From a virus (taxonomy: Duplodnaviria > Caudoviricetes): a DNA stretch of 56,272 nucleotides. The DNA lies in the IMG/VR virus record IMGVR_UViG_3300031576_000051, positions 1 to 56,272 of that record; one strand, 5' to 3'. The translations under genes and the position numbers were made by a program. Below, in pieces: positions 10,115-31,709 of this stretch; the first letter of the stretch is position 1; every line of letters starts with the position of its first letter. Below the pieces are notes generated by a model. It did not search any database and was not told the DNA's origin. It saw nothing but the letters and a program-made list of their open reading frames with translations.

Positions 10115-10797
10115 TGATCGTCAACACGCTGGAGCGCGAGGGCGTCCTGACCTGCGACGTCGAGCAATGCTCCTTCTGCGGGCTGAACCACGAGGAGGAC
10201 GTTCTCAAGAGGGACGAGAAGGGCTATTACTTCATGTGCACGACCCGCACGAGCTTCGGGGCTCCGGACGGGCATCGGGTTGACGTCGAGGTGAGGGAGG
10301 ACCGAACGCTAAATCAGCTCGAGGAGCATCGGCTGCGGCTGCAGGCCCTGATGAAGGAGGCGGTGGCTCCGCTGCTCGAGCGGCTCGACCTGTCGGAGAG
10401 GAACGCGGCCGAGTACCAGGCGCAGGCCGACGAGCTTGCGCGCCGACTGCGGGAGAAGAGGGACAAGGAGGACGACGCCCGCCTCGCCGATGCCCGACGG
10501 CGCTTCCGCGTCTCCCTCGCCGCAGAGCTGTCCTGCAAGACGTACACCTCCGCCAAGGCGGCGCTCGGAGCGGCCGACGACCTGCTCGAGGAGGCGGGCT
10601 GCGAGGGCGTGGTCACCGAGGAGAGCTACGAGCTTGAGAGGAAGAACGCGGCGAAGCTCGGCTCGGACCTGATGACCCTTCACGCGGCCGTCGGCGCCCT
10701 GATGGATCCGGAAGGCAAGCTCTCCCCTCCCGAGGGGCCCGAGCGCGCGACGCTCGAGGCGGTCTACATGCGTCTGCGAAGGGAGCGTGGCTGGTGA
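10114..10797 (+). CDS. Hypothetical protein (CxxC...H, coiled coil)
   Basis: Coupled ORF with typical codon usage. Confidence 0.65.
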   Translation: MIVNTLEREGVLTCDVEQCSFCGLNHEEDVLKRDEKGYYFMCTTRTSFGAPDGHRVDVEVREDRTLNQLEEHRLRLQALMKEAVAPLLERLDLSERNAAEYQAQADELARRLREKRDKEDDARLADARRRFRVSLAAELSCKTYTSAKAALGAADDLLEEAGCEGVVTEESYELERKNAAKLGSDLMTLHAAVGALMDPEGKLSPPEGPERATLEAVYMRLRRERGW

Positions 10798-10988
10798 AGA
10801 TCATCGGACGACGGACGGTGCTCATCATGAAAGAGGTGGAGTTCGAGTTCGAGTCCCTCGCCGAGCCGCCGGTGAAGTGCTGCAGGTGCTTCCCCTCGTG
10901 CGTGAACGAGCGAGGCATCTGCGGCTGCTGCCTCTTCGACCACGCGAACGGGACTCGGTCGAACCCCGAGCCCGAGGAGGTGGTGTGA
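10794..10988 (+). CDS. Small Cys-rich hypothetical protein
   Basis: Coupled on both sides; supplies the SD for the polymerase. Confidence 0.55.
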   Translation: MKIIGRRTVLIMKEVEFEFESLAEPPVKCCRCFPSCVNERGICGCCLFDHANGTRSNPEPEEVV

Positions 10989-13099
10989 TGGTCGCCGCGA
11001 CGACGATCGTCAGCGTTCGCAGGCGAGCGGCACAGATGGCCGAGAAGGTCCTGAAGCTCGCGAGGAAGAAGCCCTCTCCGGTCTGCATCGACTTCGAGAG
11101 CGACGGCGTGGAGCCGAGGCCTCGCTACCCTCCGAAGCCCGTGGGCGTCTCCGTCAAGTATCCGGGCAAGCCCGCCAGGTACTACGGGTTCGGTCACGTC
11201 GATTGCGTTCACTGCGGCCAGAAGGCGGCGAACGACTGCACGGAAGCCGAGGCGAAGGCGGCGCTCAAGAAGGCCTACGCGCACCCCGACGGCATCCTCT
11301 GTCAGAACGGAAAGTTCGACGTGGACGTGGCCGAGGTCCACTGGGGTCTGCCGGCGCCCGACTGGACCGACGTTCACGACACGATGTTCCTCATCTTCCT
11401 CGATGACCCAAACCAGACGACCTTCAGCTTGAAGCCCGCGGCCGAGCGAATCTTGAAGATGAAGCCGGAGGAGAAGGACGCCGTGGGCGAATGGCTCGTC
11501 AAGCACCAGCCGGTGAAGGGCGTCAAGATCTCCCTCGCCCAACGCTCGCCGACCTACTTCATGAAGTACCTTCGGTTCGCTCCTGCCCCGCTCGTCGGTC
11601 GCTACGCCAACGGAGACGTCGTGCGCACCGAGCGGATCTTCGACAAGCTGTGGCCGAAGATGAAGCGGAGGGGGATGCTCGCGGCTTACGAGCGCGAGCG
11701 GCGGTTGATGCCGTGCCTCCTGACGATGGAGCGGCAGGGAGTCCCCATCTGGCGCGACCGCCTGCGAAAGGACTGCGCGCTCCTCTCCAGATGGTTCACG
11801 AAGGTGGACGCGTGGGTGCGCTCGAGGCTCGGGTGCTCGGAGGAGGTCAACCTCAACTCGGGCGACCAGCTGTTCGAGGCGATGCTCAAGGCGAAGGTCG
11901 TCGACCGCAAGCTCGCGCTCAGGACGCCCACGGGCAAGTACCAGACGAACAAGGAGGCGCTGCTTCACGCCGTATCGGACAAGGCCTTGCTCGCGGTCCT
12001 GAAGTACCGAGCGCAGCTCAAGACGTGCCTAGGGACGTTCATGCACCCGTGGCTCGAGACGGCCGACGCCTCCGCGCAGGCGGGACTGTGCTCGAAGGAG
12101 ATACTGCGGGAGGGCAAGAGCCTCATCTTCACCAGCTGGAATCAGGTGAAGGGGGACGCTCGAGGAGGGAACGTCGGCGCCAGGACGGGCCGGCTCTCGA
12201 GCACGCCGAACTTCCAGAACATCCCGAAGGTCTTCGATCAGATCTTCGATCATCAGCTGACCGCGAAGGAGCGGCTGCGGAGGAGGGAGGAGGGCAAGCC
12301 TCCGCTTCCCAAGCTCCCCGCGGCGCTGCGCGGGCTCCCCGCCCTCCCGCAGGTTCGGTGCTACGTGGCTCCGTTCCCCGGCGAGGTCCTCATCGACCGC
12401 GACTTTGCCGCGCAGGAACCTCGCATCATGGCGCACTTCGACGGCGGGCGTATTCTCGAGATGTACAAAGCTGACCCGTGGATGGATTTTCATTCCACGG
12501 TGCAGAAGCTCCTCGCGGACGCGGGACTGCACTATGAGCGGAAGAAGGTCAAGGGCACGTCGCTCGGCATCATGTATGGTCAGGGCGTGGGGTTGCTCGC
12601 CGAGCGACTGGACCTTGAGGTGGAGGAGGCGCGGAAGTTGAAGAACGCCATCTTGGGGATCCTCGTCGGCCTTCGTGAGATGTACCAGGAGGCGAAGAAG
12701 CGAGCCGCGGAGAATCGACCCGTGACCACCTGGGGCGGCCGAGAATATTACTGCGAACCGCCCCGCATCGTGGACGGACGGTTTCGTCAGTTCGATTACA
12801 AACTTGTTAACGTGCTCATCCAGGGGTCGGCGGCGGATGCCACCAAGGAGGCCATCGTGCGCTACGTCGCGACGAAACCGAAGGGGCATCGTCTGTTACT
12901 CAACGTGCACGACCAGCTGACCGCCAGCGTGCCGAGGACCCAAGTGCGAAGCGGAATGGAAACGATGCGCAAGGCAATGGAGGAACTGGAGTTCGATGTT
13001 CCGCTGCTGACGGAAGGTTCGGTCAGCGACGAAAGTTGGGCTGACCTCATGCCGTACGACAAAAAAGGACGGATCTGTGTCGACGAACCGGCGACTTAA
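10988..13099 (+). CDS. polA: DNA polymerase family A with 3'-5' exonuclease domain
   Basis: Exo IDFE, NGKFD, DTM; TGRLSS..PNFQNIP; motif A DFAAQEPRI, motif B KGTSLGIMYG, IQGSAAD, motif C VHDQ. Confidence 0.95.
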   Translation: MVAATTIVSVRRRAAQMAEKVLKLARKKPSPVCIDFESDGVEPRPRYPPKPVGVSVKYPGKPARYYGFGHVDCVHCGQKAANDCTEAEAKAALKKAYAHPDGILCQNGKFDVDVAEVHWGLPAPDWTDVHDTMFLIFLDDPNQTTFSLKPAAERILKMKPEEKDAVGEWLVKHQPVKGVKISLAQRSPTYFMKYLRFAPAPLVGRYANGDVVRTERIFDKLWPKMKRRGMLAAYERERRLMPCLLTMERQGVPIWRDRLRKDCALLSRWFTKVDAWVRSRLGCSEEVNLNSGDQLFEAMLKAKVVDRKLALRTPTGKYQTNKEALLHAVSDKALLAVLKYRAQLKTCLGTFMHPWLETADASAQAGLCSKEILREGKSLIFTSWNQVKGDARGGNVGARTGRLSSTPNFQNIPKVFDQIFDHQLTAKERLRRREEGKPPLPKLPAALRGLPALPQVRCYVAPFPGEVLIDRDFAAQEPRIMAHFDGGRILEMYKADPWMDFHSTVQKLLADAGLHYERKKVKGTSLGIMYGQGVGLLAERLDLEVEEARKLKNAILGILVGLREMYQEAKKRAAENRPVTTWGGREYYCEPPRIVDGRFRQFDYKLVNVLIQGSAADATKEAIVRYVATKPKGHRLLLNVHDQLTASVPRTQVRSGMETMRKAMEELEFDVPLLTEGSVSDESWADLMPYDKKGRICVDEPAT

Positions 13100-14718: not shown

Positions 14719-14954
14719 ACAAGCCGCAGAGGAGGTTCGTCGTTACGGTCGAGGTGAGCGGCGACGAATGGGAGGACGTCAAGATGCAGCTTCGCGATCT
14801 GCTGCCGCACCTGGAGGACCATGGCCCTCGATGCGACTCGGTGGGAGGCGGAGTCTCGTCGGGCCATTGGGTTCGCGTCGTGGAGAACCCCGAGATGACC
14901 AACGAGCGCTACCACGAGGCGCTCGACAGATACCTAGGCCTGGAGAAGACATGA
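14715..14954 (+). CDS. Hypothetical protein
   Basis: ATGA coupling, SD. Confidence 0.6.
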   Translation: MNKPQRRFVVTVEVSGDEWEDVKMQLRDLLPHLEDHGPRCDSVGGGVSSGHWVRVVENPEMTNERYHEALDRYLGLEKT

Positions 14955-15565
14955 GGCGCTACCGCACGGGCTGCTTCGACCCGCCGTGGCCGGAGCACGG
15001 AGGAGGCAAGGTCAAGCGTGGCGCAGATCGTCACTATCCGTTGATGAAGGTGCGGGAGATCCGTGAGCTTCGGATCCGCGGGCGCTACCTGATGGACTCG
15101 TTCGAGGACGATTCGCACATGTACCTCTGGGCGACGAACAACTTTCTCGAGGCCGCGTTCGACGTCCTGAAGGCGTGGGAGTTCCGCTACGTGACCTGCG
15201 TCACCTGGGGCAAGGTTGAGCTGCGGGACGTTCCGCAGGATCTCCTCCTGGCCTCCGGCGTCGGCGTGAACGACCTCGTGCGGATCCAGACGGGCCTAGG
15301 CCAATACTTCAGGGGCGCGACGGAGCACCTTCTGTTCGGCGTGCGCGGGCGACTCCCCTACCGCACGAACCCGATCACGGGCAAAAGGGCGCAGGGCCGA
15401 ACGCTCGTGCTCTGCCCGCGCGTGAAGGAGGAGGCGAAGGACAAGCACTCGAGGAAGCCGCAGGTCTTCTATGACGCCGTGCGGCTGGTGAGCCCCGGGC
15501 CGTACCTCGAAGGCTTCGCCAGGCGCCCGCGCAAGGGCTGGGCTGTTTGGGGCAACGAGGTGTAG
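14951..15565 (+). CDS. MT-A70-family N6-adenine methyltransferase
   Basis: DPPW...HYPLM, LWATN, GLGQYFRGATEHLLFG, HSRKP, LEGFAR...GWAVWGNE. Confidence 0.9.
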   Translation: MRRYRTGCFDPPWPEHGGGKVKRGADRHYPLMKVREIRELRIRGRYLMDSFEDDSHMYLWATNNFLEAAFDVLKAWEFRYVTCVTWGKVELRDVPQDLLLASGVGVNDLVRIQTGLGQYFRGATEHLLFGVRGRLPYRTNPITGKRAQGRTLVLCPRVKEEAKDKHSRKPQVFYDAVRLVSPGPYLEGFARRPRKGWAVWGNEV

Positions 15566-15942: not shown

Positions 15943-16140
15943 ATGGAAAGGTTGCAGATGATGATCGCGATGCAATTGATGGGGATGACGATGAGCAAGG
16001 GGAGAGCCGCGACGCCCGCGGAGATCGACTCGTTCGTCGCCGCGGCGAAGATGGCGCTCGAGAAGTGCTACGCCGTCTGGCCGCAGGTGGATGACCTGGA
16101 GCGAAAGGCAGACGCGGCTCGAGCGGGGAGGCCTCGGTGA
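15943..16140 (+). CDS. Hypothetical protein
   Basis: GAGGT SD; coupled to next ORF. Confidence 0.5.
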   Translation: MERLQMMIAMQLMGMTMSKGRAATPAEIDSFVAAAKMALEKCYAVWPQVDDLERKADAARAGRPR

Positions 16141-16604
16141 GCGGCATGGAGTTCAGCGGCGCCGGCGTCAAGCACGACCTGGGGAAGCCTCGCTACGACC
16201 TCGTGCCCACCCGAGCCGTGCGCGAGTTCGTCGAGGTGCTGACCTTCGGCGCCAAGAAGTACACGGCCAACGGGTGGAGGAAGGTCGTGGGCTGGCGCTG
16301 GCGCTACCTCCGAGCGGCGCTCACCCACGTGTTCCAGTTCCTCGGAGGTCAGGCGCGCGATCCAGAGACGAACCTCCACCACCTGGCCCACGCGCTCTGC
16401 TGCCTCTTCTTCGTGCTCGAGCACGAGCTGATCCTCGAGCTTGGGACGAAGGCGGAGCGCGCGCTCGTTCCCGACGGCGACGCGGAGGCTCCGCCCGGCT
16501 CGCAGGAGGCCCCCAACTTCGAAACCAAGATGGATCCGAACGGGGCGCCGGATCGCTGGTCGCTGGTCAACGGAAAGAGGAAGCGCAAGGGGAGGGGGCG
16601 ATGA
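16137..16604 (+). CDS. DUF5664 / dATP-dGTP diphosphohydrolase N-terminal domain protein
   Basis: GVKHDLGKPRYDLVP...FGAKKY...W...DPETNLHHLAHA. Confidence 0.85.
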   Translation: MSGMEFSGAGVKHDLGKPRYDLVPTRAVREFVEVLTFGAKKYTANGWRKVVGWRWRYLRAALTHVFQFLGGQARDPETNLHHLAHALCCLFFVLEHELILELGTKAERALVPDGDAEAPPGSQEAPNFETKMDPNGAPDRWSLVNGKRKRKGRGR

Positions 16605-16714
16605 CCTTCTGGCAGTTCGCCGACGCCCATCCATTCGTCACGCTCGCCTGCGCGTGGCTCGCGGCGATGACGACGATGTACGTGGCCTATCAAATCGGAG
16701 GGAGGCGGAAATGA
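16601..16714 (+). CDS. Small membrane protein
   Basis: 37 aa with one hydrophobic helix; ATGA overlaps on both sides. Confidence 0.5.
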   Translation: MTFWQFADAHPFVTLACAWLAAMTTMYVAYQIGGRRK

Positions 16715-17355
16715 AGATCTACCTGGCGAGCAGCTGGCGCAACAAGGAGTTCCCACGCGTCAGAGATCTGCTGAGGTCGGCGGGCAACGAGGTCTACGAT
16801 TTCACGAAAGCGGCGACCGCGTTCCACTGGTCGGCTCTCGACCCCGAGTGGGAGAGATGGTCGAGCGCGACGTTCAGGGACGCCCTCGACCACCCGCTCG
16901 CGGACGCCGCGTTCAGGGCGGACATGGATGCGCTCGAGGGTTGCGAGGCCTGCGTGCTCCTCCTTCCGTGCAACCGCTCCGCCCATCTCGAGGCGGGCCA
17001 TGCGGTCGCGGCGGGCAAGCGGGTCGTCGTGATGACGGACAGCCTCGAGCGGCCGGAGCTGATGTACAAGATGACCCACGCGGTCGTGCTCTCCGATGAG
17101 GAGCTGCTCGCCGCGCTGGCGAATCCCCGAGAGCTAACCGACGCCGAGGCGAAGCTGATGGACGTAGAGGCCTGCTACAGACACCTCGAGGCCGGAGCGG
17201 CTCACCCCATCGTCGCCGAGCGGATGCGAGACGAGCGGCTCCTGACTTGGTTCAAGGTCGGGGAGAACACCATCAAGAGCCAGCGCGAACGCATCGAGGA
17301 ACTGGAGAAGCGACCGAAGTGGACGGGGCCAGGTCCGATGCCGGACGTCAGCTGA
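16711..17355 (+). CDS. Nucleoside 2-deoxyribosyltransferase-like / dNMP N-glycosidase
   Basis: KIYLASS...D..AL..C...VLLL...SAHLEAG.A...GK.V, the NDT-fold pattern. Confidence 0.7.
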   Translation: MKIYLASSWRNKEFPRVRDLLRSAGNEVYDFTKAATAFHWSALDPEWERWSSATFRDALDHPLADAAFRADMDALEGCEACVLLLPCNRSAHLEAGHAVAAGKRVVVMTDSLERPELMYKMTHAVVLSDEELLAALANPRELTDAEAKLMDVEACYRHLEAGAAHPIVAERMRDERLLTWFKVGENTIKSQRERIEELEKRPKWTGPGPMPDVS

Positions 17356-21908: not shown

Positions 21909-22304
21909 ATGTCGAAGAAGAACGTGAAGAAGCTCGTCGCCTCGAAATCGTCGAAGCCGTCGCTCTCGGACCTCGTGAGCGGGAAGTCGGAGGCGGTCGC
22001 GAAGGCGGTCGCTGAGAGGCGGGCGACGAACGACAAGGCCCTCGCGAAGGCGGCGGCGCAGGAGAAGGTCGCGGCGAAGAAGGACGGGAAGGCGGCGAAG
22101 GAGACGACCCGCAAGCCCGGCAGCGGCGCGCTGATCCGCGAGATGCTGATGAAGGGGGAGACTCCCGAGCGAATCGTCGCCGCGGTCCTGAAGGCCTTCC
22201 CCGATCGGAACACGACGAAGGGCGATGTCGCCTGGAACAAGTGGGACATGAAGCGGAAGGGCGTGAAGGTCCCCGAGACGCGGAAGGTCGCCGCGAAGGC
22301 CTGA
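21909..22304 (+). CDS. Lys/Ala-rich protein with shared C-terminal PGSG-IRE helical domain (putative DNA-binding)
   Basis: Histone-H1-like N-terminus; C-terminus aligns with those of 25171-26073 and 26998-28362. Confidence 0.75.
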   Translation: MSKKNVKKLVASKSSKPSLSDLVSGKSEAVAKAVAERRATNDKALAKAAAQEKVAAKKDGKAAKETTRKPGSGALIREMLMKGETPERIVAAVLKAFPDRNTTKGDVAWNKWDMKRKGVKVPETRKVAAKA

Positions 22305-24431: not shown

Positions 24432-24611
24432 ATGAAGAAGCCCGAGCCGCCGAAGTTCAAGGAGCTTCTCGCCAGGTTCGAGCTAGAGGCTCGTTCGCAT
24501 CAGATGGAGGAGAAGGCAGACATGCGCTCGTGCCTCAAGCAAGACCTCGAGAGGACGCGCTCGCAGCTGCTCGAGATGTTCCATCGCGCCAGGTTCGGAG
24601 CCCGCCCATGA
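24432..24611 (+). CDS. Small hypothetical protein (59 aa)
   Basis: GGAGGT SD; ATGA overlap with the glycosylase. Confidence 0.55.
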   Translation: MKKPEPPKFKELLARFELEARSHQMEEKADMRSCLKQDLERTRSQLLEMFHRARFGARP

Positions 24612-25066
24612 AGACTCCTCTCAAGCGTTCTCCGTTCGACCTCATGCAAGAGCGGCTGCGGAGGCGTCCGTGGGCCCTGCTCGTCGGTTGCGTCCTCTAC
24701 AACCGAACGCGTGGGGAGCACGCATGGCCCGTCCTCTGGAGCTTCCTCGCCGACTGGAGAAGTCCTGAGAACGTGGTGGACGAATACCAGGCCGATCCGC
24801 AGGACGTGCTGGACCTGTTAGAGCTTCGGTTCGCCACGCTCGGATTCATGCGACGTCGGGCGAAGGCGGTCGTCGCCTTGAGCCACGCGTTCATCGGCTT
24901 CGACCTCGAGCGCGGGGACGTGGAGAGGCTCCCCGGCTGCGGGAGGTACGCGGCGGAGAGCTTCGAGATCTTCGTGCGCGGTCGGCTCGTGCCGAAGCCT
25001 CAGGACAAGGAGCTGAGGCGCTACGTTCAATGGGCCCGCGCTCAAGGAGGGAGGAGCCACACCTAG
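24608..25066 (+). CDS. MBD4-like HhH-GPD DNA glycosylase (T:G/U:G mismatch type)
   Basis: RSPFDLMQE..PW.LL....NRT.G..A.PVLW.FL; HhH LPGCGRYA.ES..IF; catalytic Asp in PQDKEL..Y..W. Collinear with the MBD4 catalytic domain as I recall it. Confidence 0.85.
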   Translation: MKTPLKRSPFDLMQERLRRRPWALLVGCVLYNRTRGEHAWPVLWSFLADWRSPENVVDEYQADPQDVLDLLELRFATLGFMRRRAKAVVALSHAFIGFDLERGDVERLPGCGRYAAESFEIFVRGRLVPKPQDKELRRYVQWARAQGGRSHT

Positions 25067-25170
25067 GCCGCGAAGAAAGATGCGATGGACGATGGACTGT
25101 TTGAATGGCGGTGAGCTAGACTGATGATCGATGTAGACGTTCCACCCGTCGTGCTGAGGAAGGCAAGGTC

Positions 25171-26073
25171 ATGAAGAAGAAAGCGTCGAAGGCGAAGCCC
25201 AACCCGAAGATGAAGCGGCAGCTCGTCGCCCAGCTGAGAGCCAAGCAGGCGAAGGAGAAGAAGGGGCCAGGCTTCGAGATGAACGAAGAGGAGCTGAAGC
25301 AGCAGGCCTCGAGGCCCCAACCAGAGGTTGCCTCCCTCCCGTGTCCTGACTGCGACGAGCCCCTCTCGCCGATGAACAGGAGCATCCTGCAGGACGGCAG
25401 GGTCATCCACATCGGCTGCAAGGCGCCGAAGAAGACGACGGAGCGGCCGCGCGCGGAGAAGGAGGCGGAGCCGATCCTCTCCGGCCTGCCGAAGCATAGG
25501 AACGTGAAGCCGCCGAAGCCGGCGCCTCCGTTCAAGTCGGAGTTCGGAGACATCATTCCGATGGGCGACTACGCCGGGAGGACCTGCCTGCAGCTGAGGC
25601 GGGACGCGGCGACGGTCACGTTCATCAACACCGGAGATCAGTTCGGCATGCACCTGAACTACGAACCGAAGGAGAGGTTCGACGCCAGGTTCAAGCCGCT
25701 GGAGAAGTACCCCGTGAAGAAGGCGGTCGAGCACTTCGTCAAGTGCGCGGTCGATTACGGGGCAACGCAGGACGTCCTGGATTGGCTGGGACGGGTGGTG
25801 ACTCTCAAGGAGGAGCAGATCATGGCTGCAAAGAAGAAGCTGGCTGGCGCGTCGAACGGCAACGGCAAGGGCGTGAAGAAGTCGTCGGGCCCGAAGAAGC
25901 CGGGGAGCGGCTCGCGCATTCGGGAGCTGATCCTGAAGGCGACGCCGACGGAGAAGATCCTCTCCATCATCCGCAAGGAGTTCCCCGGCTCGAAGGCGAA
26001 GGCCTCCGACGTGTCGTGGAACCGCGGCAAGCTGAAGAACGACGGGGTGAAGATCCCCGAGCCGAAGGGCTAG
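25171..26073 (+). CDS. Multidomain protein: Zn-finger + unknown domain + shared PGSG-IRE domain
   Basis: CPDC...H..C; probable internal in-frame start at 25822. Confidence 0.7.
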   Translation: MKKKASKAKPNPKMKRQLVAQLRAKQAKEKKGPGFEMNEEELKQQASRPQPEVASLPCPDCDEPLSPMNRSILQDGRVIHIGCKAPKKTTERPRAEKEAEPILSGLPKHRNVKPPKPAPPFKSEFGDIIPMGDYAGRTCLQLRRDAATVTFINTGDQFGMHLNYEPKERFDARFKPLEKYPVKKAVEHFVKCAVDYGATQDVLDWLGRVVTLKEEQIMAAKKKLAGASNGNGKGVKKSSGPKKPGSGSRIRELILKATPTEKILSIIRKEFPGSKAKASDVSWNRGKLKNDGVKIPEPKG

Positions 26074-26088
26074 GACCCGTGGCTCGCG

Positions 26089-26216
26089 ACTCCCGACCCC
26101 TCCGCCGAGGCGGGGGAGGTCGGGATGCGCACGAGGCCGATGACCTGAAGGGACGTTGCCTGCGGACCTCAGCCCGCTTGGCGACCAAGCCCCAAGGTTG
26201 TCGGCCTCGTGCGCAT
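26089..26216 (+). ncRNA. Structured intergenic RNA / inverted repeats
   Basis: Hairpin at 26090-26125 and a 22-bp stem 26125-26146/26195-26216. Confidence 0.45.
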
Positions 26217-26239
26217 TCAGCGCTGAGGGAGATTTGAAC

Positions 26240-27001
26240 ATGACACCGCAAACCTCCGGCCTGGCCGGAGCAGTGAAGAAGTATCTCGAGCTGCAGCTGA
26301 CGAAGGACGTGGCCACCGGCTTCGACTCCGGCGCCCGAGCGGCGCTCGGTGCCTGGAGCCGGCTCGAGGGATCCCGCCCGCCGACGGAGAGCGAGCAGGT
26401 GATGGAGTTCATGGAGAAATTCAACCACATGTTCCTCACCGGCCAGGGCGTCCCCCTTCACCGCCACCCGCCGACGAACCATCCGCGACACCTCACGCTG
26501 CGAAAGCTTCAGGAGCGATTCGTCCAGATGCAGGAGGAGCTGATCGAGGAGTTCTACGACGGCATGCACGAGCAGAGCCTCGAGAAGATGGCCGACGCTC
26601 TGATCGATCTCGTCTACTTCGCGAAGGGGACGGCGAACCTCCTCGGCCTTCCGTGGGAGGAGCTGTGGAACGACGTTCACTCCGCGAACATGCGGAAGGT
26701 CCGCGGAGAGAAGACCCGCGGAGGGATGCTCATCAAGGTGGACTGCGTGAAGCCGCCCGGATGGGTGGGGCCGCGCACGCTCGACATCCTCAAGGCCGCC
26801 GGCTATCGCCCGGGCTTCGATGACAGGTCGTTCTGGGACGACCCCGAGCACTGCCCAGGCGGGCCGCAGACGGCGGAGGACGTGGCGTTCACTTCGGTGG
26901 CAGGAGCGCCGTGCGAGGCGGTGAAGGTGTACGACGGCCGCGAGGGTCCGACGGACAAGGGCGTCGCCGGCTCCGACTCGTCGGGGGAGGGGTCGCGATG
27001 A
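26240..27001 (+). CDS. MazG-like / PRA-PH-family nucleotide pyrophosphohydrolase (dUTPase-like)
   Basis: QEELIEEF...ADALIDLVYFAKG...VHSANMRK...KPPGW. Confidence 0.85.
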   Translation: MTPQTSGLAGAVKKYLELQLTKDVATGFDSGARAALGAWSRLEGSRPPTESEQVMEFMEKFNHMFLTGQGVPLHRHPPTNHPRHLTLRKLQERFVQMQEELIEEFYDGMHEQSLEKMADALIDLVYFAKGTANLLGLPWEELWNDVHSANMRKVRGEKTRGGMLIKVDCVKPPGWVGPRTLDILKAAGYRPGFDDRSFWDDPEHCPGGPQTAEDVAFTSVAGAPCEAVKVYDGREGPTDKGVAGSDSSGEGSR

Positions 27002-28362
27002 GCAAGCTCACCGCCCTAGGCGCCGACATCTTCGCCGGCACCTTCACCCACGGAGTCAAGGCCGCGGGCTTCGACGTCCTCGGCCACCTCGAGCACGGCC
27101 CGTATGGCGTGAAGACGGCACAGCTGAACTTCCCCAAGCTCGAGGTCCGCGTCGGCCGCCAGAACTGGAACGAGAAGGACTTCAAGGGCAAGGTCGACTT
27201 CATGTACACGAACCCGCCGTGCGCGGCCTGGAGCACGGCGCGCTCGGGACAGGGCGGAAGCTGGGAGACGCAGGTGCATCGGCTCTCCTGCGTGGATGAC
27301 GTTGTGACGGCGGGCCTCGTCATCCGTCCGAAGGCGTGGTGCTGGGAGTCGGTGACCAACGCCTGGAGGATGGGTCAGAGGTTCGTGCTTCACCAGGCAG
27401 AGCGTTGGAACGACGCAGGCTACCACTGCACCGTGCTCCTCCAGGACAACCAGTTCCTCGGAGCGGCGCAGGAGCGACAGCGCATGTTCCTCATCGCACA
27501 CCTGCACCCGCTCGTCTGGCCGAAGCTGACGCCGACGACGACCGTGGGAGAGGCGTTCAAGCTGCTGCCGAAGAAGCTCCCGCCCGAGCCGGTCACCCAC
27601 AGCGAGATGCAGCCCTACTGGAAGAAGCGCCTGTGGCCGATGAGCGACAAGTACAAGGGCTACTTCCGGCGCACGCACGAGATGGAAGGCCGCGGGCCGA
27701 TGAAGCTCGAGGGCCGCATCCCGTCCGTCCTCGTCCGCAAGCTGGACCTCGAGAAACCGGCGCCGGTGATGCTGGCCTCGAGCATCCGCCTCCACCCGTT
27801 CGAACGTCGCTACGTGAACTGGTTCGAGTGGCTCGTCCTCTGCGGCCTGCCGCTCACCTGGAAGACGAGCTGCGGCGGTGCAGACTCGGCGACGCAGGAG
27901 CTTGCTCGAGCCGTCCTCTCCCCGGTCGGCAGGTGGCTCGGCACGGCGGTGAGGAAGGGGCTCGCGCTTCCGGCCTTGAGGACACGGCCGAGCACGACGG
28001 TCGTGGACCTCCGCAAGCCCGACCATCCGTACACCCAGAAGATGTTCGACTTCGACGGGTTCACCATCGCACCCTTCGACCTCACGCCGCAGAAGCCCGC
28101 GGAGGAGCCGGTCAACAAAGCGAGCGGGTTCGCCTCCGGCAGGGCGTCGGTCGCTGCCAAGGCGGCGCTGGCGAAGAAGGGCGGAGGAGGAGCGCGCAGG
28201 CCAGGCTCGGGAGCCCGCATCCGCGAGCTGATCCTGAAGGCATGGCCGTGGGAGAGGATCGTCAAGACCGTGCACGATGAATTCCCCGGCAGCAAGGCGG
28301 GGAAGGCCGACGTCGCTTACCATAAATACCATATGCGCAAGGAAGGGGTGGCCGTACCATGA
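26998..28362 (+). CDS. C5-cytosine DNA methyltransferase with shared C-terminal PGSG-IRE domain
   Basis: Motif I IFAGTF (atypical), IV NPPC, VI ESV, VIII QERQRMF, X ARAV. Confidence 0.8.
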   Translation: MSKLTALGADIFAGTFTHGVKAAGFDVLGHLEHGPYGVKTAQLNFPKLEVRVGRQNWNEKDFKGKVDFMYTNPPCAAWSTARSGQGGSWETQVHRLSCVDDVVTAGLVIRPKAWCWESVTNAWRMGQRFVLHQAERWNDAGYHCTVLLQDNQFLGAAQERQRMFLIAHLHPLVWPKLTPTTTVGEAFKLLPKKLPPEPVTHSEMQPYWKKRLWPMSDKYKGYFRRTHEMEGRGPMKLEGRIPSVLVRKLDLEKPAPVMLASSIRLHPFERRYVNWFEWLVLCGLPLTWKTSCGGADSATQELARAVLSPVGRWLGTAVRKGLALPALRTRPSTTVVDLRKPDHPYTQKMFDFDGFTIAPFDLTPQKPAEEPVNKASGFASGRASVAAKAALAKKGGGGARRPGSGARIRELILKAWPWERIVKTVHDEFPGSKAGKADVAYHKYHMRKEGVAVP

Positions 28363-29165
28363 ACTTCGACGACGTTTGGAGAAAGCTCCTTTGGCAGATC
28401 CTGACGACGGGCCGCCAGGTGAGCCCGCGCGGTCAGAGGACGAAGGAGCTGCCGATGCACACGATCTCCGTCGATATGAGGAAGCCGGTGCTGACCGTGC
28501 CGGAGCGCAAGCTGTGGTACGGGTTCATGGCAGCGGAGGCTCACTGGATGCTGATGGGTTCGGACAGGCTCGCGGACCTCGAGCAGTGGGGAAAGAACGT
28601 CGCGAGGTTCAGCGATGACGGCTCCACGTTCTTCGGCGCCTACGGCCCGAAGATCCTCGATCAGCTGGACTACGTGGTGGCGAAGCTGCTCGAGGATCCG
28701 GTGTCAAGGCAGGCGGGCCTCACCATCTGGAGAGAGAAGCCGCCGAAGACGAAGGACGTTCCCTGCACCGTCGCGATGTTCTTCACCGTGCGCCAAGGGG
28801 AGGGGCAGCCGATGCTCGAGGCGAACGTGTTCATGAGGTCGAACGACGCGTGGCTCGGGACGCCGTACGACGTCTTCAACTTCTCCATGGTCGCCCATCT
28901 CGTCGCGGCCAGGGTGAACGAAGCGCTCGGCGGGCGACTCCCGATGGTCACGCCCGGAACCCTACGCCTCGCCGCCGCGTCGTCTCACCTGTACGAGGGG
29001 AACTGGGAGGCTGCGGCCATCTGCGCCAGGCCCGTCGAGGGCACCGAGCAGGAGCCCTCTCCCGAGGCTCTGTTCACTTCGGCCGTCGCGCTTCGGCGTA
29101 CGCTGAAGGAGCTGCGGGAGTCGAAGCCCGGCGACGCTCTCAGATGGTGGGAGGCGAAACCATGA
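28359..29165 (+). CDS. Thymidylate synthase-family protein, probable dCMP (hydroxy)methyltransferase
   Basis: SRQA, KDVPCT catalytic Cys, MRSND.WLG.PYD (Asp at the ThyA Asn177 position), SHLY. Confidence 0.85.
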   Translation: MNFDDVWRKLLWQILTTGRQVSPRGQRTKELPMHTISVDMRKPVLTVPERKLWYGFMAAEAHWMLMGSDRLADLEQWGKNVARFSDDGSTFFGAYGPKILDQLDYVVAKLLEDPVSRQAGLTIWREKPPKTKDVPCTVAMFFTVRQGEGQPMLEANVFMRSNDAWLGTPYDVFNFSMVAHLVAARVNEALGGRLPMVTPGTLRLAAASSHLYEGNWEAAAICARPVEGTEQEPSPEALFTSAVALRRTLKELRESKPGDALRWWEAKP

Positions 29166-29440
29166 AAGGGTGGAGAGTGACCGACTTGGGCAACGGTCGA
29201 GCGGAGGTCGCCATCTCGTGGGACGGAATGCGCGAGGCGACGTTGGCCGCGGAGGCGGACGAGCTGCAGGCGATGATCGTCGACCTGGCCGGCGCCTACT
29301 ACCGCATCACCGGAGCACTCCCGCCTGCCGTGCGAAGGGCCGACGTCGGAGCGGCGAGTCGCACGGCTCCACCACGTGCGCAGATCCTCAAGGCAGCCGA
29401 GGCATCGAGGACGAAGAACCGAGCGAGGGCGCGCCGATGA
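29162..29440 (+). CDS. Hypothetical protein
   Basis: ATGA overlaps on both sides. Confidence 0.55.
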   Translation: MKGWRVTDLGNGRAEVAISWDGMREATLAAEADELQAMIVDLAGAYYRITGALPPAVRRADVGAASRTAPPRAQILKAAEASRTKNRARARR

Positions 29441-29719
29441 TCTTCGTGCTCGATAGGTACGGCAAGCCTCGCCCTCCTCAGCTGCCCTGCGGCTGCAGGG
29501 TCATCGGGAACCTCAAGGCCATCGGTCTCGACGGCGAACCCATCCCGGGCGTGACCGGTCTCAACTCGAAGACCGGGTGGCTGCGTGTGCAGAGGTACAT
29601 CGTGTTCCCCGGGCTCCTCCGCCGCCGCCACGGAGGCGGGACTTCAGACGATCCAGGTCACGGCTCCGTTCGAGCTTCGTTGCAAGGTCCACGGTCTGCT
29701 CAAGGAAGAGGAGGGCTGA
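29437..29719 (+). other. Small gene with apparent +1 frameshift near 29605-29613
   Basis: Codon usage switches frame after TTC CCC GGG; the unshifted frame runs into the deaminase. Confidence 0.4.
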
Positions 29720-29721
29720 CG

Positions 29722-30252
29722 ATGCATCGAACGATCCAGGACAGACCCGAGAAGGATGAGACGTGGCTGAACGTCGCGCGAGAGATCTCGAGACGGTCCA
29801 CCTGCTACCGCCTGGCGGTCGGCGCCGTGCTCATCGACGTCCGAGGCTACGTGATGTCGACGGGGTACAACGGACGAGCGACGGGCGAGGAGAACTGCAA
29901 CGAGCCGTCGCTGAGACCGATCTCCGAGGCGGAGCGCCGCCAGGTGCGAGGCTGGACCTCTCCGCCCGACGCGAAGAAGACAGTCTATCTTCATCGCTGC
30001 GCGAACAGCGACGCGGAGATCGGCAAGCCCAACGGATGCGAGAGCATCCACGCCGAACAGAACGCGCTGATGCAGTGCCGCGACGTCTGGAGCATCGGCA
30101 CGTGCTACGTCACGCACAGCCCTTGTCTGCCGTGCGTGAAGATGCTCATGAACACGAGCTGCAGGCGGGTCGTCTTCGGCGCCGAGTACCCGAGCGGCGG
30201 GGCGCGTGAGCTGTGGGAACGCTCCGGCCGACTCTGGGTGCCGAGGGGCTAG
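29722..30252 (+). CDS. dCMP deaminase
   Basis: RSTC...VGAV...GYNG...HAEQNAL...SPCLPC; own GAGGAGG SD. Confidence 0.9.
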   Translation: MHRTIQDRPEKDETWLNVAREISRRSTCYRLAVGAVLIDVRGYVMSTGYNGRATGEENCNEPSLRPISEAERRQVRGWTSPPDAKKTVYLHRCANSDAEIGKPNGCESIHAEQNALMQCRDVWSIGTCYVTHSPCLPCVKMLMNTSCRRVVFGAEYPSGGARELWERSGRLWVPRG

Positions 30253-31473: not shown

Positions 31474-31709
31474 TCGATCCCCTTCGCCAGGTCAGCAAGC
31501 TGCTCGTTCAGAATGCTGAGCTCACTCTGCATCACGTCGCGTCGAACCGTCAACCTATCCACGTGTGATGCGAGCCAGGTTTCGAGATCGGCGTCCTGAC
31601 CGGCCTCGTCCTTGGCCGCGAATGCCGTCACCTCGTCAAGATTCGCGCCTCGGCCAGGTCCTGCGAGCCTCTCAGCCATGTACATCTTCATCACGTTATC
31701 TCGTTGCAT
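31470..31709 (-). CDS. Hypothetical protein (possible fibre chaperone)
   Basis: Directly downstream of the fibre gene; C-terminal coiled coil. Confidence 0.55.
   Translation of the reverse strand: MQRDNVMKMYMAERLAGPGRGANLDEVTAFAAKDEAGQDADLETWLASHVDRLTVRRDVMQSELSILNEQLADLAKGIE

What the first reader, a model, noticed from the sequence alone, without database searches (positions are those of the whole stretch)
24608..30252. Candidate integrated cytosine writer / repair / pool-control system
Seen within 5.6 kb and co-oriented: MBD4-like glycosylase, shared-domain protein, structured RNA, MazG-like pyrophosphatase, C5-MTase, Asp-type TS homolog and dCMP deaminase; MazG, MTase and TS overlap by ATGA. 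I saw no dNMP kinase, TET/JBP, glycosyltransferase or aGPT-PPlase. Inference: post-replicative 5mC is written by the MTase, its deamination product is repaired by the phage glycosylase, and dTMP (or 5hm-dUMP) is supplied via modified dCMP. This differs from the T4 and YuA-type pathways.
Basis: partly seen in the sequence, partly recalled or inferred. Interest (0 to 1): 0.8.

Follow-up and report, generated by a model that had tools for sequence, protein, structure and literature searches.

The report
Phage cytosine-modification operon with extra methyltransferase
An uncultured phage carries the known gene set for swapping cytosine for a C5-modified cytosine in its DNA, but with a DNA cytosine methyltransferase built into the same operon, a pairing that recurs in many uncultured phages and has not been tested.

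Summary
The window is a complete 56-kb uncultured phage genome. The parts are an MBD4-like glycosylase, a protein sharing a 55-aa C-terminal domain with two others, a strongly folded 166-nt leader, a MazG-type pyrophosphatase, a C5 DNA methyltransferase, an Asp-type thymidylate-synthase homolog and a dCMP-family deaminase. MazG, MTase, TS, a small ORF and the deaminase are chained by ATGA overlaps.

MazG + Asp-type TS + deaminase (+ the same glycosylase) is the Xanthomonas phage Xp12-type module that replaces cytosine before replication. The route to dTMP through modified dC nucleotides is published for Xp12.

What is unusual is the methyltransferase. Its family matched only 2 records weakly among 50,697 deposited phage records. 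In IMG/VR, 60 of 65 adequately flanked loci put it beside an Asp-type TS. This genome also lacks the dNMP kinase and the class-I methyltransferase that most relatives carry.

Whether the TS makes 5-methyl- or 5-hydroxymethyl-dCMP is unresolved. Fold and active-site features lean towards hydroxymethyl; the accessory genes lean towards methyl. My best reading is a two-writer system (nucleotide pool plus DNA) with deamination repair. It is a new variant of a known kind.

The parts
24608..25066 (+). MBD4-like HhH-GPD DNA glycosylase, 152 aa, with no methyl-CpG-binding domain. It is predicted to be monofunctional: Tyr sits at the EndoIII Lys120 position of the hairpin 'LPGCGRY', and an Asp ('PQD') lies 19 residues after it.
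   Evidence: Pfam HhH-GPD E 5e-4, below cut-off. phmmer against PDB MBD4 glycosylase domains gives E 2e-17. It is 41% identical to the Xp12 gene next to Xp12 MazG. tblastn finds it in 14 of 50,697 phage records, 13 of them Xp12-group. The start overlaps the upstream ORF by ATGA. Which residues are catalytic is recalled knowledge of EndoIII/MBD4.
25171..26073 (+). Conserved protein of unknown function (300 aa) with a Cys-rich N-terminal stretch, a basic linker and the shared C-terminal three-helix domain (about 25876-26070).
   Evidence: No Pfam family. phrog_17205 matches the C-terminus. A relative lies upstream of the module in 62 of the 80 TS-relative loci. The N-terminal part alone has 67 homologous ORFs in the 240 loci. 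The ESM Atlas search was uninformative.
26074..26239 (+). Strongly structured intergenic leader of the MazG-MTase-TS-sORF-deaminase unit. It has a 15-bp GC hairpin (about 26092-26125) and a long hairpin with 22-nt arms (26125-26146 / 26195-26216). A GAGGGAG Shine-Dalgarno sequence and ATG 26240 follow.
   Evidence: MFE -104.7 kcal/mol, z -7.2, 0 of 200 shuffles fold as well. Inverted repeat I2. No U-tract terminator was called here. No Rfam match. No homolog in the loci fetched up to then (L001-L165) and no second copy in the window. No significant remnant of the class-I MTase gene that relatives carry at this place.
26240..27001 (+). MazG-type (PRA-PH) nucleoside-triphosphate pyrophosphohydrolase, 253 aa. 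Its inferred role is dCTP to dCMP.
   Evidence: PF01503 E 7e-10, above cut-off. phrog_671 / phrog_18404. 39% identical over 84 aa to Xp12 MazG. Substrate specificity was not tested.
26998..28362 (+). C5 DNA cytosine methyltransferase, 454 aa. The catalytic domain spans about 27028-27927. A basic linker and the shared three-helix domain (28180-28359) follow.
   Evidence: PF00145 E 3e-15. The family profile against PDB gives M.HaeIII E 1e-17. In an alignment of 28 sequences (the window protein plus 27 of the 62 homologs), motifs PPC, (W)ESV, QxRxR and RAVMPPVG are conserved, while motif I reads IFAGLFTxG instead of FxGxGG. ATGA overlaps lie at both ends. It is the only PF00145 hit in the genome.
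28359..29165 (+). Asp-type thymidylate-synthase homolog, 268 aa. It is a dCMP C5-transferase whose product is 5-methyl- or 5-hydroxymethyl-dCMP (unresolved).
   Evidence: PF00303 E 6e-19. Alignment with E. coli ThyA keeps E58, Y94, R126, C146, R166, S167, D169, H207 and Y209. It changes N177 to D, H147 to T, W80 to V and R127 to Q, and it has no TS-like C-terminal tail. The AF2 model has pLDDT 91.2. Its best structural match is MilA CMP hydroxymethylase, Z 26.2, rmsd 2.5, 249 aligned, against about Z 23.3 for thymidylate synthases. It is the only PF00303 hit in the genome.
29162..29440 (+). Small ORF (92 aa) of unknown function, coupled by ATGA to the TS upstream and to the deaminase frame downstream.
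   Evidence: GC3 is 0.88 in its frame over 29161-29280. ATGA overlaps. No Pfam family. No homolog in the 240 related loci.
29437..30252 (+). dCMP/dCTP-family zinc deaminase. The catalytic domain runs from about 29722 (ATG with a strong Shine-Dalgarno sequence). A possible 95-aa N-terminal extension starts at ATG 29437.
   Evidence: PF00383 E 1e-17. phrog_174. PDB dCMP deaminases, E 3e-14, with HAE and PCxxC motifs aligned. GC3 is high in this frame over 29401-29580 and from 29701, and low between them. The extension has no homolog in related loci.
21909..22304 (+). Third carrier of the shared C-terminal domain (131 aa).
   Evidence: Alignment A3. An HMM search of the window's six frames finds exactly three copies.

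Best explanation
This is a composite system for C5-modified cytosine with three arms, co-expressed from one early operon.

Pool arm (homologous to the Xp12 and T4 kind). MazG turns dCTP into dCMP. The Asp-type TS homolog converts dCMP into 5-methyl- or 5-hydroxymethyl-dCMP. Host kinases raise this to the triphosphate, because the phage has no kinase of its own. The phage PolA then builds it into DNA in place of C. The deaminase bleeds part of the dC or modified-dC nucleotide pool towards the dU/dT side.

Polymer arm. The C5 DNA methyltransferase is tethered by a basic linker and a small HTH-like domain. It methylates cytosines that still enter DNA unmodified, so that C5 is occupied everywhere.

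Repair arm. The MBD4-like monofunctional glycosylase removes T (or 5hmU) opposite G, which arises when 5mC (or 5hmC) is deaminated. Uracil glycosylases cannot see that lesion.

Shown here: the domain identities, the catalytic residues, the translational coupling, and the recurrent linkage of this MTase family with Asp-type TS modules.

Inferred: every substrate, the product of the TS, incorporation into DNA without a phage kinase, and the gap-filling role of the MTase.
For: 1. MazG-MTase-TS-sORF-deaminase are chained by ATGA overlaps. All catalytic residues are intact.

2. Published work ties thymidylate-synthase, PRA-PH and dCMP-deaminase domains to modified-cytosine phage contigs. 104 of 149 deaminases in modified contigs lie within 3 kb of a TS, against 17 of 277 in unmodified ones. 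The Xp12 TS makes 5mdCMP (bioRxiv 10.1101/2024.12.05.627091, passages; PMC8670742, passages).

3. Xp12 has the same set and order, glycosylase-MazG-TS-deaminase. It also has no match to a profile of 105 module kinases, while the AXL3 control scores 3e-130.

4. DNA of the relatives AXL3 and AXL1 resists enzymes whose sites contain G/C. 35 of 37 enzymes failed on AXL3 (PMC7504290; PMC9206674).

5. MTase-centred survey. IMG/VR holds 102 relatives. Of the best 80 loci, 65 have at least 3.5 kb downstream; of these 60 carry a TS homolog, 55 MazG, 54 a deaminase and 53 a kinase, across loci of 27-71% GC. All 63 TS homologs found in the 80 loci have Asp at the ThyA-177 position. In JGI metagenomes, 27 of 29 adequately flanked loci have the TS.

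6. One locus fuses the C5-MTase to the class-I MTase of the module in a single 843-aa ORF.

7. The glycosylase occurs in 14 of 50,697 phage records, 13 of them Xp12-group.

8. The genome has one TS-family gene and no ThyX.

9. 21 of 65 TS-relative loci with enough upstream sequence have MazG followed directly by the TS with no kinase, so kinase-less modules are common in this clade.
Against: - No dNMP kinase anywhere in a genome rated 100% complete. Yet 53 of the 60 MTase loci that carry a TS have one. T4 needs its own kinase for hmdCMP (recalled).
- The TS looks more like a hydroxymethylase than like the Xp12 methylase: nearest structure MilA, Thr at 147 as in T4 gp42 and MilA, no TS-like C-terminal tail, no W80, and no phage DHFR. 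If the product is 5hmdCMP, the lack of a kinase weighs more.
- The MTase is dispensable for such modules. Only 7 of the 80 closest TS relatives have it, and Xp12, AXL3, PW916 and MW202621 lack it.
- GAGCTC is depleted ten-fold (4 seen, 41.8 expected), which hints that the DNA is or was cleavable at a C-containing site. Xp12, AXL3 and MW202621 show no such depletion.
- Motif I of the MTase departs from FxGxGG.
- No chemical or read-level datum on this DNA exists in my calls.
Confidence: 0.5

Rival explanations
1. Polymer writer only. With the kinase and the class-I MTase lost, modified dCMP is no longer built into DNA. The C5-MTase, sitting where relatives keep the kinase, is the only writer and makes 5mC at its own motif(s). 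MazG, TS and deaminase remain as a pool-control shunt: dCTP to dCMP to 5-modified dCMP to dTMP (or 5hmdUMP, then discarded). The glycosylase repairs T:G.
For: The kinase is absent and so is the class-I MTase. The MTase lies between MazG and the TS, exactly where AXL3, MW202621 and most relatives have the kinase. GAGCTC is strongly depleted, as expected if most sites are unprotected. A nucleoside-deoxyribosyltransferase-like gene (16441-17355) could dispose of a dead-end nucleotide (inference).
Against: A dCTPase and a dCMP-consuming enzyme would starve a 65% GC genome of dCTP if dCTP were the real substrate for replication (composition; inference). Xp12 replaces all C without this kinase (PMC9206674). 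About a third of TS-clade modules lack the kinase. The same MTase family normally sits beside complete modules that include a kinase, so it is not in general a substitute for the pool arm.
Confidence: 0.22
2. Unlinked orphan methylase. The pool arm alone modifies the DNA. The C5-MTase is an ordinary anti-restriction or gene-regulatory orphan methylase with one short target, and it merely travels in the early operon.
For: Phage orphan C5-MTases are common (general knowledge). Only 7 of the 80 nearest TS modules carry it. Its position within the module varies: before MazG in most loci, after MazG here. GAGCTC depletion in this genome and in some MTase-bearing relatives suggests pressure from a specific host restriction system.
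Against: 60 of 65 adequately flanked IMG/VR loci and 27 of 29 metagenome loci with this MTase family also have an Asp-type TS within a few kb, over 27-71% GC. The gene is translationally coupled on both sides. One locus fuses it to another module component. A site-specific methylase adds nothing to DNA whose cytosines are all already modified.
Confidence: 0.18
3. No DNA modification. The cluster is only nucleotide salvage and housekeeping (dTMP synthesis, pool sanitation, mismatch repair), and the MTase is inactive.
For: Depositors annotate the relatives as plain thymidylate synthesis (PMC7504290). Motif I of the MTase is atypical.
Against: Asp at ThyA-177 switches the substrate to dCMP (PMC8670742 passages citing the mutagenesis work). 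It is present in all 63 linked TS homologs. The DNA of the relatives resists restriction. The MTase catalytic motifs are conserved across the 28 sequences aligned (the window protein plus 27 of the 62 homologs).
Confidence: 0.05

Closest known systems
Xanthomonas phage Xp12 (Bosavirus) 5-methylcytosine system
   Same: Same four functions in the same order and orientation: MBD4-like/ENDO3c glycosylase, MazG-type NTP-PPase, Asp-type TS homolog, dCMP-family deaminase. Neither has a phage dNMP kinase of the module type. The glycosylases are 41% identical.
   Different: Xp12 has no C5-MTase and encodes DHFR next to the deaminase; the window has none. The TS is only 28% identical. Unlike the Xp12 enzyme, it lacks W80 and the TS-like C-terminal tail and has Thr rather than Pro after the catalytic Cys. 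The deaminases are barely alignable, 42 aa. The structural genes are unrelated: TerL is about 40% identical to any deposited phage.
Stenotrophomonas phage AXL3 / Pseudoxanthomonas phage PW916 / Manatee Spring contig MW202621 module
   Same: These hold the closest TS sequences among deposited phage records (51-58% identity). AXL3 and PW916 give the best nucleotide matches over MazG/TS/deaminase, about 72%; MW202621 matches at 70% over TS and deaminase only. AXL3 DNA resisted 35 of 37 enzymes, all with G/C in their sites (PMC7504290).
   Different: They carry a class-I SAM methyltransferase before MazG and a thymidylate-kinase-like gene between MazG and the TS. Both are absent here. They lack the C5-MTase and the glycosylase. 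The AXL3 paper also reports a ThyX.
T4-type hydroxymethylcytosine pathway (dCTPase gp56, dCMP hydroxymethylase gp42, dNMP kinase gp1, dCMP deaminase cd)
   Same: Same logic of dCTP removal, C5 transfer onto dCMP and deamination. The TS homolog shares with gp42 an Asp at 177, Thr after the catalytic Cys, and the lack of a TS-like C-terminal tail.
   Different: No dNMP kinase, no glycosyltransferase of PF00535 type, no second Asn-type TS. T4 has no C5-MTase and no MBD4-like glycosylase (recalled).
Phage C5-methyltransferase / 5mYOX (TET) post-replicative hypermodification clusters
   Same: A phage-encoded C5 DNA methyltransferase serves as a writer inside a DNA-modification gene cluster (bioRxiv 10.1101/2023.12.21.572611, passages).
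   Different: No Tet_JBP domain in the genome. Here the MTase is paired with the pre-replicative TS arm. That paper treats the two routes as alternatives and reports only six contigs with both ThyS and 5mYOX. Whether the MTase clades are the same was not tested.
MBD4 glycosylase domain (mammalian T/U:G mismatch glycosylase)
   Same: About 130 aligned residues, E 2e-17. The HhH hairpin has Tyr at the EndoIII-Lys position, and the downstream Asp is conserved.
   Different: There is no methyl-CpG-binding domain; the protein is only 152 aa. The Pfam HhH-GPD score is below the gathering threshold.

Membership tests
Thymidylate synthase superfamily, dCMP-specific (Asp-type) C5 transferases | Pfam PF00303 above the gathering score, and the TS fold | tested here: met
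   68.7 bits against a cut-off of 24.3. The AF2 model has pLDDT 91.2. Z is 26.2 to MilA and about 23 to thymidylate synthases.
Thymidylate synthase superfamily, dCMP-specific (Asp-type) C5 transferases | Catalytic Cys (ThyA C146) and the nucleotide-binding residues R166, S167, D169, H207, Y209, E58, Y94 | tested here: met
   All are invariant in alignment A5 with E. coli ThyA, T4 gp42 and the Xp12 TS.
Thymidylate synthase superfamily, dCMP-specific (Asp-type) C5 transferases | Asp instead of Asn at ThyA position 177 (cytosine specificity) | tested here: met
   'TPYDVFNF'. The same holds in 63 of 63 linked homologs.
dCMP methylase (Xp12 type) versus dCMP hydroxymethylase (T4 gp42 / MilA type) | Nature of the transferred group (hydride transfer or hydration) | not testable with these tools
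   Features leaning towards hydroxymethyl: Thr at 147, no W80, no TS-like C-terminal tail, nearest structure MilA, no DHFR. Features leaning towards methyl: an Xp12-like accessory set and a 5mC-writing MTase. None of these is a validated discriminator.
C5 DNA cytosine methyltransferases (PF00145) | Pfam above the gathering score; motif IV Pro-Cys; motif VI ENV-like Glu; motif VIII QxRxR; motif X | tested here: met
   56.8 bits against a cut-off of 22. NPPCAAWS, WESV, QxRxR and RAVMPPVG are conserved in the 28 aligned sequences (the window protein plus 27 of the 62 homologs). The profile against M.HaeIII gives E 1e-17.
C5 DNA cytosine methyltransferases (PF00145) | Motif I FxGxGG (AdoMet loop) | tested here: inconclusive
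   The family consensus is IFAGLFTxG. Phe and one Gly are kept and the Gly-Gly pair is replaced. The motif II Glu (LEH) is conserved. Cofactor binding was not modelled.
HhH-GPD glycosylases, MBD4 glycosylase-domain type | Significant similarity to the MBD4 catalytic domain, with the HhH hairpin and the catalytic Asp | tested here: met
   E 2e-17, residues 6-143. 'LPGCGRY...PQD'. The identity of the catalytic positions is recalled from EndoIII/MBD4 literature.
HhH-GPD glycosylases, MBD4 glycosylase-domain type | Pfam HhH-GPD gathering score | tested here: not met
   20.8 bits against a cut-off of 26.2. This is why I write 'MBD4-like' and not a curated family member.
MBD4 proper | N-terminal methyl-CpG-binding domain | tested here: not met
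   The protein is 152 aa and the glycosylase domain covers all of it.
MazG / PRA-PH all-alpha NTP pyrophosphohydrolases | Pfam PF01503 above the gathering score | tested here: met
   39.6 bits against a cut-off of 21.3.
MazG / PRA-PH all-alpha NTP pyrophosphohydrolases | dCTP as substrate | not testable with these tools
   Inferred only from the module context.
dCMP/dCTP deaminase family (PF00383) | Pfam above cut-off; HAE and PCxxC zinc motifs | tested here: met
   64.3 bits against a cut-off of 25. 'IHAEQNAL' and 'SPCLPCVKM' align to solved dCMP deaminases.
5mC-selective deaminases (mSCD type) | Preference for 5-methyl-dC nucleotides | not tested
   No sequence of mSCD-B5 was on hand. Similarity to the Xp12 deaminase is only 42 aa.
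Xp12-type pre-replicative cytosine replacement module | Co-located MazG + Asp-type TS + dCMP-family deaminase | tested here: met
   Compared with Xp12.
Xp12-type pre-replicative cytosine replacement module | Complete replacement of C in virion DNA | not testable with these tools
   There is no isolate and no chemical data.
T4-type hmC pathway | Phage dNMP kinase | tested here: not met
   No hit to PF02223, to a 105-sequence kinase profile, or by tblastn.
C5-MT / 5mYOX post-replicative clusters | TET/JBP dioxygenase | tested here: not met
   PF12851: 0 hits at E <= 0.1.

The most novel reading that the evidence does not exclude
This C5-methyltransferase family is a dedicated second writer of Asp-type-TS modification modules. 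These phages would mark C5 of cytosine both before replication (through the nucleotide pool) and after it (on the polymer). That gives either a gap-free 5mC coat or DNA carrying two different C5 marks: 5hmC or a derivative from the pool, and 5mC on leftover C. In this genome the kinase and the class-I methyltransferase are gone and the MTase sits in the kinase's slot. It may therefore be caught in a switch from pool writing to polymer writing, with the pool arm kept as a dC-to-dT shunt and an MBD4-like enzyme guarding against the resulting T:G lesions.
Probability: 0.3. Interest if true: 0.75.

Novelty: new variant of a known kind. Interest (0 to 1): 0.55.

Why it matters
Pre-replicative (thymidylate-synthase-based) and post-replicative (methyltransferase-based) routes to modified cytosine are treated as alternatives in the papers I read.

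Here a conserved C5-MTase family is wired into the pre-replicative module in roughly a hundred IMG/VR contigs (102 relatives) and 352 JGI metagenome stretches. Among 50,697 deposited phage records it gave only two weak matches.

If the two writers cooperate, several things would follow:
- It would explain how such phages reach complete modification.
- It would yield methyltransferases that work on heavily modified DNA.
- It would add an MBD4-like glycosylase and a deaminase with probable preference for modified dC, enzymes of the kind now used for methylome sequencing.

If they do not cooperate, the cluster is simply one more Xp12/AXL3-type module with an orphan methylase.

Tried and rejected
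- dNMP kinase. I searched with tblastn using two kinases, a protein search of the whole record, a profile of 105 kinases with a positive control, PF02223 and Walker-A patterns in six frames. Nothing was found in a real ORF.
- Homology between the MTase and AXL3 gp29, which occupies the same slot: none.
- Homology between the window's second MTase (MT-A70, 14768-15565) and AXL3 gp31: none.
- The structured leader as a known RNA: no Rfam hit at gathering score, and the best hit at the E-value threshold is 0.51. No tRNA.
- The leader as a conserved element: no homolog in the loci fetched up to then (L001-L165).
- The leader as a scar of the deleted class-I MTase gene: the best tblastn E is 0.005 among 89 queries, which is not significant.
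- The shared domain. No Pfam match. Foldseek against the PDB gives a best E of 0.43, though the weak hits are mostly winged-helix DNA-binding domains. No Pfam partner domains turn up in the 150 best of 2,381 cluster representatives.
- SD300 in the ESM Atlas: uninformative.
- NCBIfam gave no equivalog for any of the genes.
- A single-protein scan of IMG/VR with the MTase found nothing. The alignment-based scan was needed.
- Palindrome avoidance as a test of global protection. Pooled 6-mer palindrome O/E is the same in high-GC loci with the MTase (0.90) and without it (0.89). GAGCTC depletion varies among loci. This is not decisive.
- The pooled comparison over all loci is confounded by GC content and lineage, so I dropped it.
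- Supplementary figures of the bioRxiv deaminase paper, which show the rule for predicting the TS product and the neighbourhoods of Xp12, mSCD-B5 and PaMx74, could not be seen. They may bear on the methyl-versus-hydroxymethyl call.
- Searches for a prior description of a C5-MTase inside an Asp-type TS module (and terms within papers) found none. Subscription journals are not covered.

Full report
WHAT THE WINDOW IS

The window is the whole of one IMG/VR virus record: 56,272 bp, CheckV completeness 100%, 58-69% GC in 2-kb windows and about 65% overall. Early and replication genes lie on the + strand from 1.6 to 30.3 kb. Structural genes lie on the - strand from 30.7 kb onward.

The early genes include:
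- a primase (2288-4540), a family-A DNA polymerase (10787-13099), a PD-(D/E)XK exonuclease and an SNF2-type helicase;
- an MT-A70 adenine methyltransferase (14768-15565);
- a dATP/dGTP-diphosphohydrolase-like MazG (16137-16604);
- a nucleoside-deoxyribosyltransferase-like protein (16441-17355).

The large terminase is only about 40% identical to that of any deposited phage. There are no tRNAs.

CHECK OF THE OBSERVATION

Glycosylase (24608-25066). It is weak in Pfam (HhH-GPD E 5e-4, below cut-off). It matches solved MBD4 glycosylase domains at E 2e-17 over nearly its whole length.

MazG. The PRA-PH domain matches at E 7e-10.

C5-MTase. PF00145 matches at E 3e-15, and a family profile hits M.HaeIII at 1e-17.

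TS homolog. PF00303 matches at E 6e-19.

Deaminase. The domain (PF00383, E 1e-17) fills only the last ~170 residues of the long frame. GC3 and start-site inspection give two things:
- a 92-aa ORF at 29162-29440;
- a deaminase frame that opens at ATG 29437, with a second, well-placed start at 29722.

ATGA overlaps join the upstream ORF to the glycosylase (24608), MazG to the MTase (26998), the MTase to the TS (28359), the TS to the small ORF (29162), and the small ORF to the deaminase frame (29437).

The 166 nt between the 300-aa protein and MazG fold far better than shuffles: -104.7 kcal/mol, z -7.2, (fold of 26070-26245). They contain the second-longest inverted repeat listed for the window. 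They match no Rfam family and have no counterpart in the loci fetched up to then (L001-L165), nor a second copy in the window.

The 'shared domain' is real. Three proteins end in the same ~55 residues at 47-48% identity, and an HMM finds exactly these three in six-frame translation.

ABSENCES

The genome has:
- no thymidylate-kinase family gene and no relative of the module kinase;
- no ThyX and no second TS;
- no DHFR;
- no Tet_JBP and no GT2 glycosyltransferase;
- no class-I methyltransferase of the AXL3 gp31 type.

WHAT IS ALREADY KNOWN

I read passages, not whole papers.

PMC9206674 reports that Xp12 has 5mC in place of all C. AXL1, its relative, resists all but five of 31 enzymes. The shared module is DHFR, dCMP deaminase, TS, NTP-PPase and an ENDO3c-domain protein.

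PMC7504290 reports that 35 of 37 enzymes, all with G/C in their sites, failed on AXL3 DNA. AXL3 encodes a deaminase, a TS, a 'thymidylate kinase', an NTP-PPase, a methyltransferase and a ThyX.

PMC8670742 found the TS domain to be the Pfam family most associated with modified-cytosine contigs. Asp at ThyA-177 and the residue at 147 were the top discriminating positions.

bioRxiv 10.1101/2024.12.05.627091 reports four relevant points:
- 104 of 149 deaminases on modified contigs sit within 3 kb of a TS;
- PRA-PH is among the top neighbours;
- the Xp12 TS and five of seven tested TS homologs make 5mdCMP;
- one such deaminase prefers 5mdCTP and yields dTTP.

The reference list of PMC11946847 cites the 1982 papers on the XP-12 5-methyl-dCTP deaminase and on 'a new thymidylate biosynthesis'.

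So the pool arm and the dTMP-through-modified-dC idea are known biology of the Xp12 kind.

COMPARATIVE GENOMICS, TS-CENTRED

The closest deposited relatives of the TS are MW202621 (58%), AXL3 (51%) and PW916 (51%). In all three the order is class-I MTase, MazG, kinase-like gene, TS, (small ORF), deaminase.

IMG/VR holds 545 relatives of the TS. Among the best 80 loci, the counts are:

| Gene found in the locus | Loci (of 80) |
|---|---|
| Deaminase | 78 |
| MazG | 72 |
| Relative of the 300-aa protein | 62 |
| Class-I MTase | 62 |
| Kinase | 54 |
| C5-MTase | 7 |

Among the 65 loci with enough upstream sequence, 21 have MazG followed directly by the TS with no kinase.

COMPARATIVE GENOMICS, MTASE-CENTRED

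The MTase has 62 metagenomic homologs. Most of the 27 homologs I aligned carry the C-terminal shared domain. Among 50,697 deposited phage records it has only two weak partial matches.

IMG/VR has 102 relatives. Of the best 80 loci, 65 extend at least 3.5 kb downstream of the MTase. The counts in those 65 are:

| Gene found in the locus | Loci (of 65) |
|---|---|
| TS homolog | 60 |
| MazG | 55 |
| Deaminase | 54 |
| Kinase | 53 |

The commonest order, in 42 loci, is MTase-MazG-kinase-TS-deaminase. The 80 loci span 27-71% GC.

Every one of the 63 TS homologs in the 80 loci has Asp at the 177 position, and 61 have Cys-Thr at 146-147.

JGI metagenomes give 352 relatives. Of 29 adequately flanked loci, 27 have the TS and 26 the kinase.

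One locus (L185) encodes the C5-MTase, the shared domain and the class-I MTase as a single 843-aa ORF.

The window's order (MazG-MTase-TS, no kinase) is rare. One other locus shows it. The nearest accessible MTase relatives (41-51% identity) all have MTase-MazG-kinase-TS-deaminase, four of five with the class-I MTase gene in front.

I read this as a real linkage between this MTase family and Asp-type TS modules. The MTase is an optional rather than a core member.

METHYL OR HYDROXYMETHYL?

I aligned the window enzyme with E. coli ThyA, T4 gp42 and the Xp12 TS. It keeps every catalytic and nucleotide-binding residue. It differs as follows:

| Position | Window enzyme | Xp12 TS (methylase) | T4 gp42 (hydroxymethylase) | MilA (hydroxymethylase) |
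|---|---|---|---|---|
| ThyA 147 | Thr | Pro | Thr | Thr |
| ThyA 80 | Val | Trp | Trp | not read |
| ThyA 127 | Gln | Arg | Arg | not read |
| TS-like C-terminal tail | absent | kept | absent | not read |

The AF2 model (pLDDT 91.2) is closest to MilA: Z 26.2, rmsd 2.5, 249 aligned residues, 29% identity. Thymidylate synthases reach about Z 23.3. The Xp12 enzyme, by contrast, is nearer to ordinary TS; T4-type td genes appear among its hits.

The window has no DHFR, while Xp12-group phages all do. From general enzymology (recalled), only the methylating reaction oxidises tetrahydrofolate.

These points lean towards hydroxymethylation. Against them stand:
- the Xp12-like accessory set: the glycosylase is found in 13 Xp12-group records and one weak cyanophage hit out of 50,697 records;
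- no kinase, as in Xp12;
- the single TS with no ThyX;
- an MTase whose product is 5mC.

I put hydroxymethyl at about 55-60% and methyl at about 40%. None of the sequence features is a validated discriminator.

THE GLYCOSYLASE

The HhH hairpin reads LPGCGRY. Tyr stands where EndoIII has its Schiff-base Lys, as in MBD4. An Asp lies 19 residues later, aligned with the MBD4 'PED'. The assignment of these positions is recalled knowledge.

MBD4 removes T, U and 5hmU opposite G (recalled). In DNA whose cytosines are 5mC or 5hmC, those are exactly the deamination products. The module's own deaminase family can attack 5mC in single-stranded DNA, which gives a reason for a dedicated repair enzyme (inference).

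THE SHARED DOMAIN

It is a C-terminal three-helix bundle: AF2 pLDDT 85.6 from 45 sequences. It has no significant structural match. The best weak hits are winged-helix DNA-binding domains of Fur, PerR and Zur and of linker histone H1 (best E 0.43).

It ends 158 ORFs in 92 of 160 related loci, often several different proteins per locus. It has 2,381 cluster representatives at E <= 0.001 in 1.84 billion proteins. None of the best 150 carries a partner Pfam domain, apart from three histone-H1-like low-complexity hits.

With its Lys/Ala/Pro-rich linker, I take it as a DNA-tethering tail. This is inference, with low confidence.

HOW IT MOST LIKELY WORKS

See Best explanation. The domains, residues, coupling and co-occurrence are shown. 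The substrates, the TS product, incorporation without a phage kinase, and the MTase's gap-filling role are inferred.

The main counter-evidence is:
- the missing kinase;
- the hydroxymethylase-like TS;
- the optional nature of the MTase;
- a ten-fold depletion of GAGCTC: 4 observed, 41.8 expected, with all four sites in the structural half. Xp12, AXL3 and MW202621 do not show it, and it varies among MTase-bearing relatives.

The leader RNA has no assigned role. A long, nearly perfect hairpin in front of a coupled operon is the usual look of an RNase III or stability element. That is a guess.

NOVELTY

The pool arm, the glycosylase and the deaminase logic are known from Xp12. The new points are:
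- the integration of a conserved C5-MTase family into such modules;
- this genome's particular rewiring: MTase in the kinase slot, class-I MTase replaced by a structured leader, and an Xp12-type glycosylase added to an AXL3-type module.

My four library searches and in-paper term searches found no description of this pairing. The library omits most subscription journals, and I could not see supplements.

Noticed in passing
L020:10803-12389 (IMG/VR locus): The Asp-type TS homolog of this related phage carries an insertion of about 270 aa directly before the catalytic Cys. The insert has an HNH-like 'DVHHKNDNVNDNR' stretch and ends in 'HN' before the Cys, so it looks like an intein at the active-site cysteine.
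   Followed up: no
L185:5911-8439 (JGI metagenome locus): One 843-aa ORF fuses the C5-MTase (aa 38-341), the shared three-helix domain and a class-I SAM methyltransferase of the AXL3 gp31 type (aa 651-810). This is a Rosetta-stone link between the two methyltransferases of these modules.
   Followed up: partly
window, whole genome; sites at 31518, 38723, 46403, 48630: GAGCTC (the SacI-type site) is depleted ten-fold: 4 observed against 41.8 expected from a Markov model, z -9.2. It is absent from the whole early half. CCGG (0.73), CATG (0.77), GATC (0.83) and AAGCTT (0.30) are also low. Xp12, AXL3 and MW202621 show no GAGCTC depletion.
   Followed up: partly
window 16137-16604 and 16441-17355 (+): A second MazG-type protein with the dATP/dGTP diphosphohydrolase N-terminal domain (PF18909, E 3e-27) lies next to a nucleoside 2-deoxyribosyltransferase-like protein (phrog_12607, E 3e-41; Pfam below cut-off). 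This may be another nucleotide-pool editing pair, 9 kb upstream of the cluster.
   Followed up: no
window 14768-15565 (+): An MT-A70-family (DPPW) adenine methyltransferase. The phage may therefore also carry 6mA.
   Followed up: no
L005:4425-5219 and 61 further loci of L086-L165: A class-I SAM methyltransferase (Methyltransf_23/11) sits directly upstream of MazG in 62 of the 80 closest TS modules and in AXL3, PW916 and MW202621. Its substrate is unknown, and it is absent from the window.
   Followed up: partly
L047:9450-10472, L048:9406-10446, L038:9411-10472, L050:9462-10523: In the low-GC, marine-looking group, a conserved protein of about 345 aa with no Pfam family lies between MazG and the kinase inside the MTase-MazG-kinase-TS-deaminase-PolA module. 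It is a candidate further modification enzyme.
   Followed up: no
window 25876-26070, 28180-28359, 22086-22301; 158 ORFs in related loci: The shared C-terminal three-helix domain belongs to a large unnamed family: 2,381 cluster representatives at E <= 0.001. It is almost always C-terminal and sometimes present in 2-3 copies per protein.
   Followed up: partly
window 29437-29721 and 29162-29440: The possible N-terminal extension of the deaminase and the small ORF before it have no homolog in 240 related loci. GC3 supports coding in both.
   Followed up: partly
Fold search row 15 (PDB 9iqc): A solved TS-fold 'monooxygenase dependent on riboflavin with dCMP and FAD' ranks among the structural neighbours of the TS homolog: Z 23.1, rmsd 2.0, 211 aligned. 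It shows a further chemistry on dCMP within this fold.
   Followed up: no
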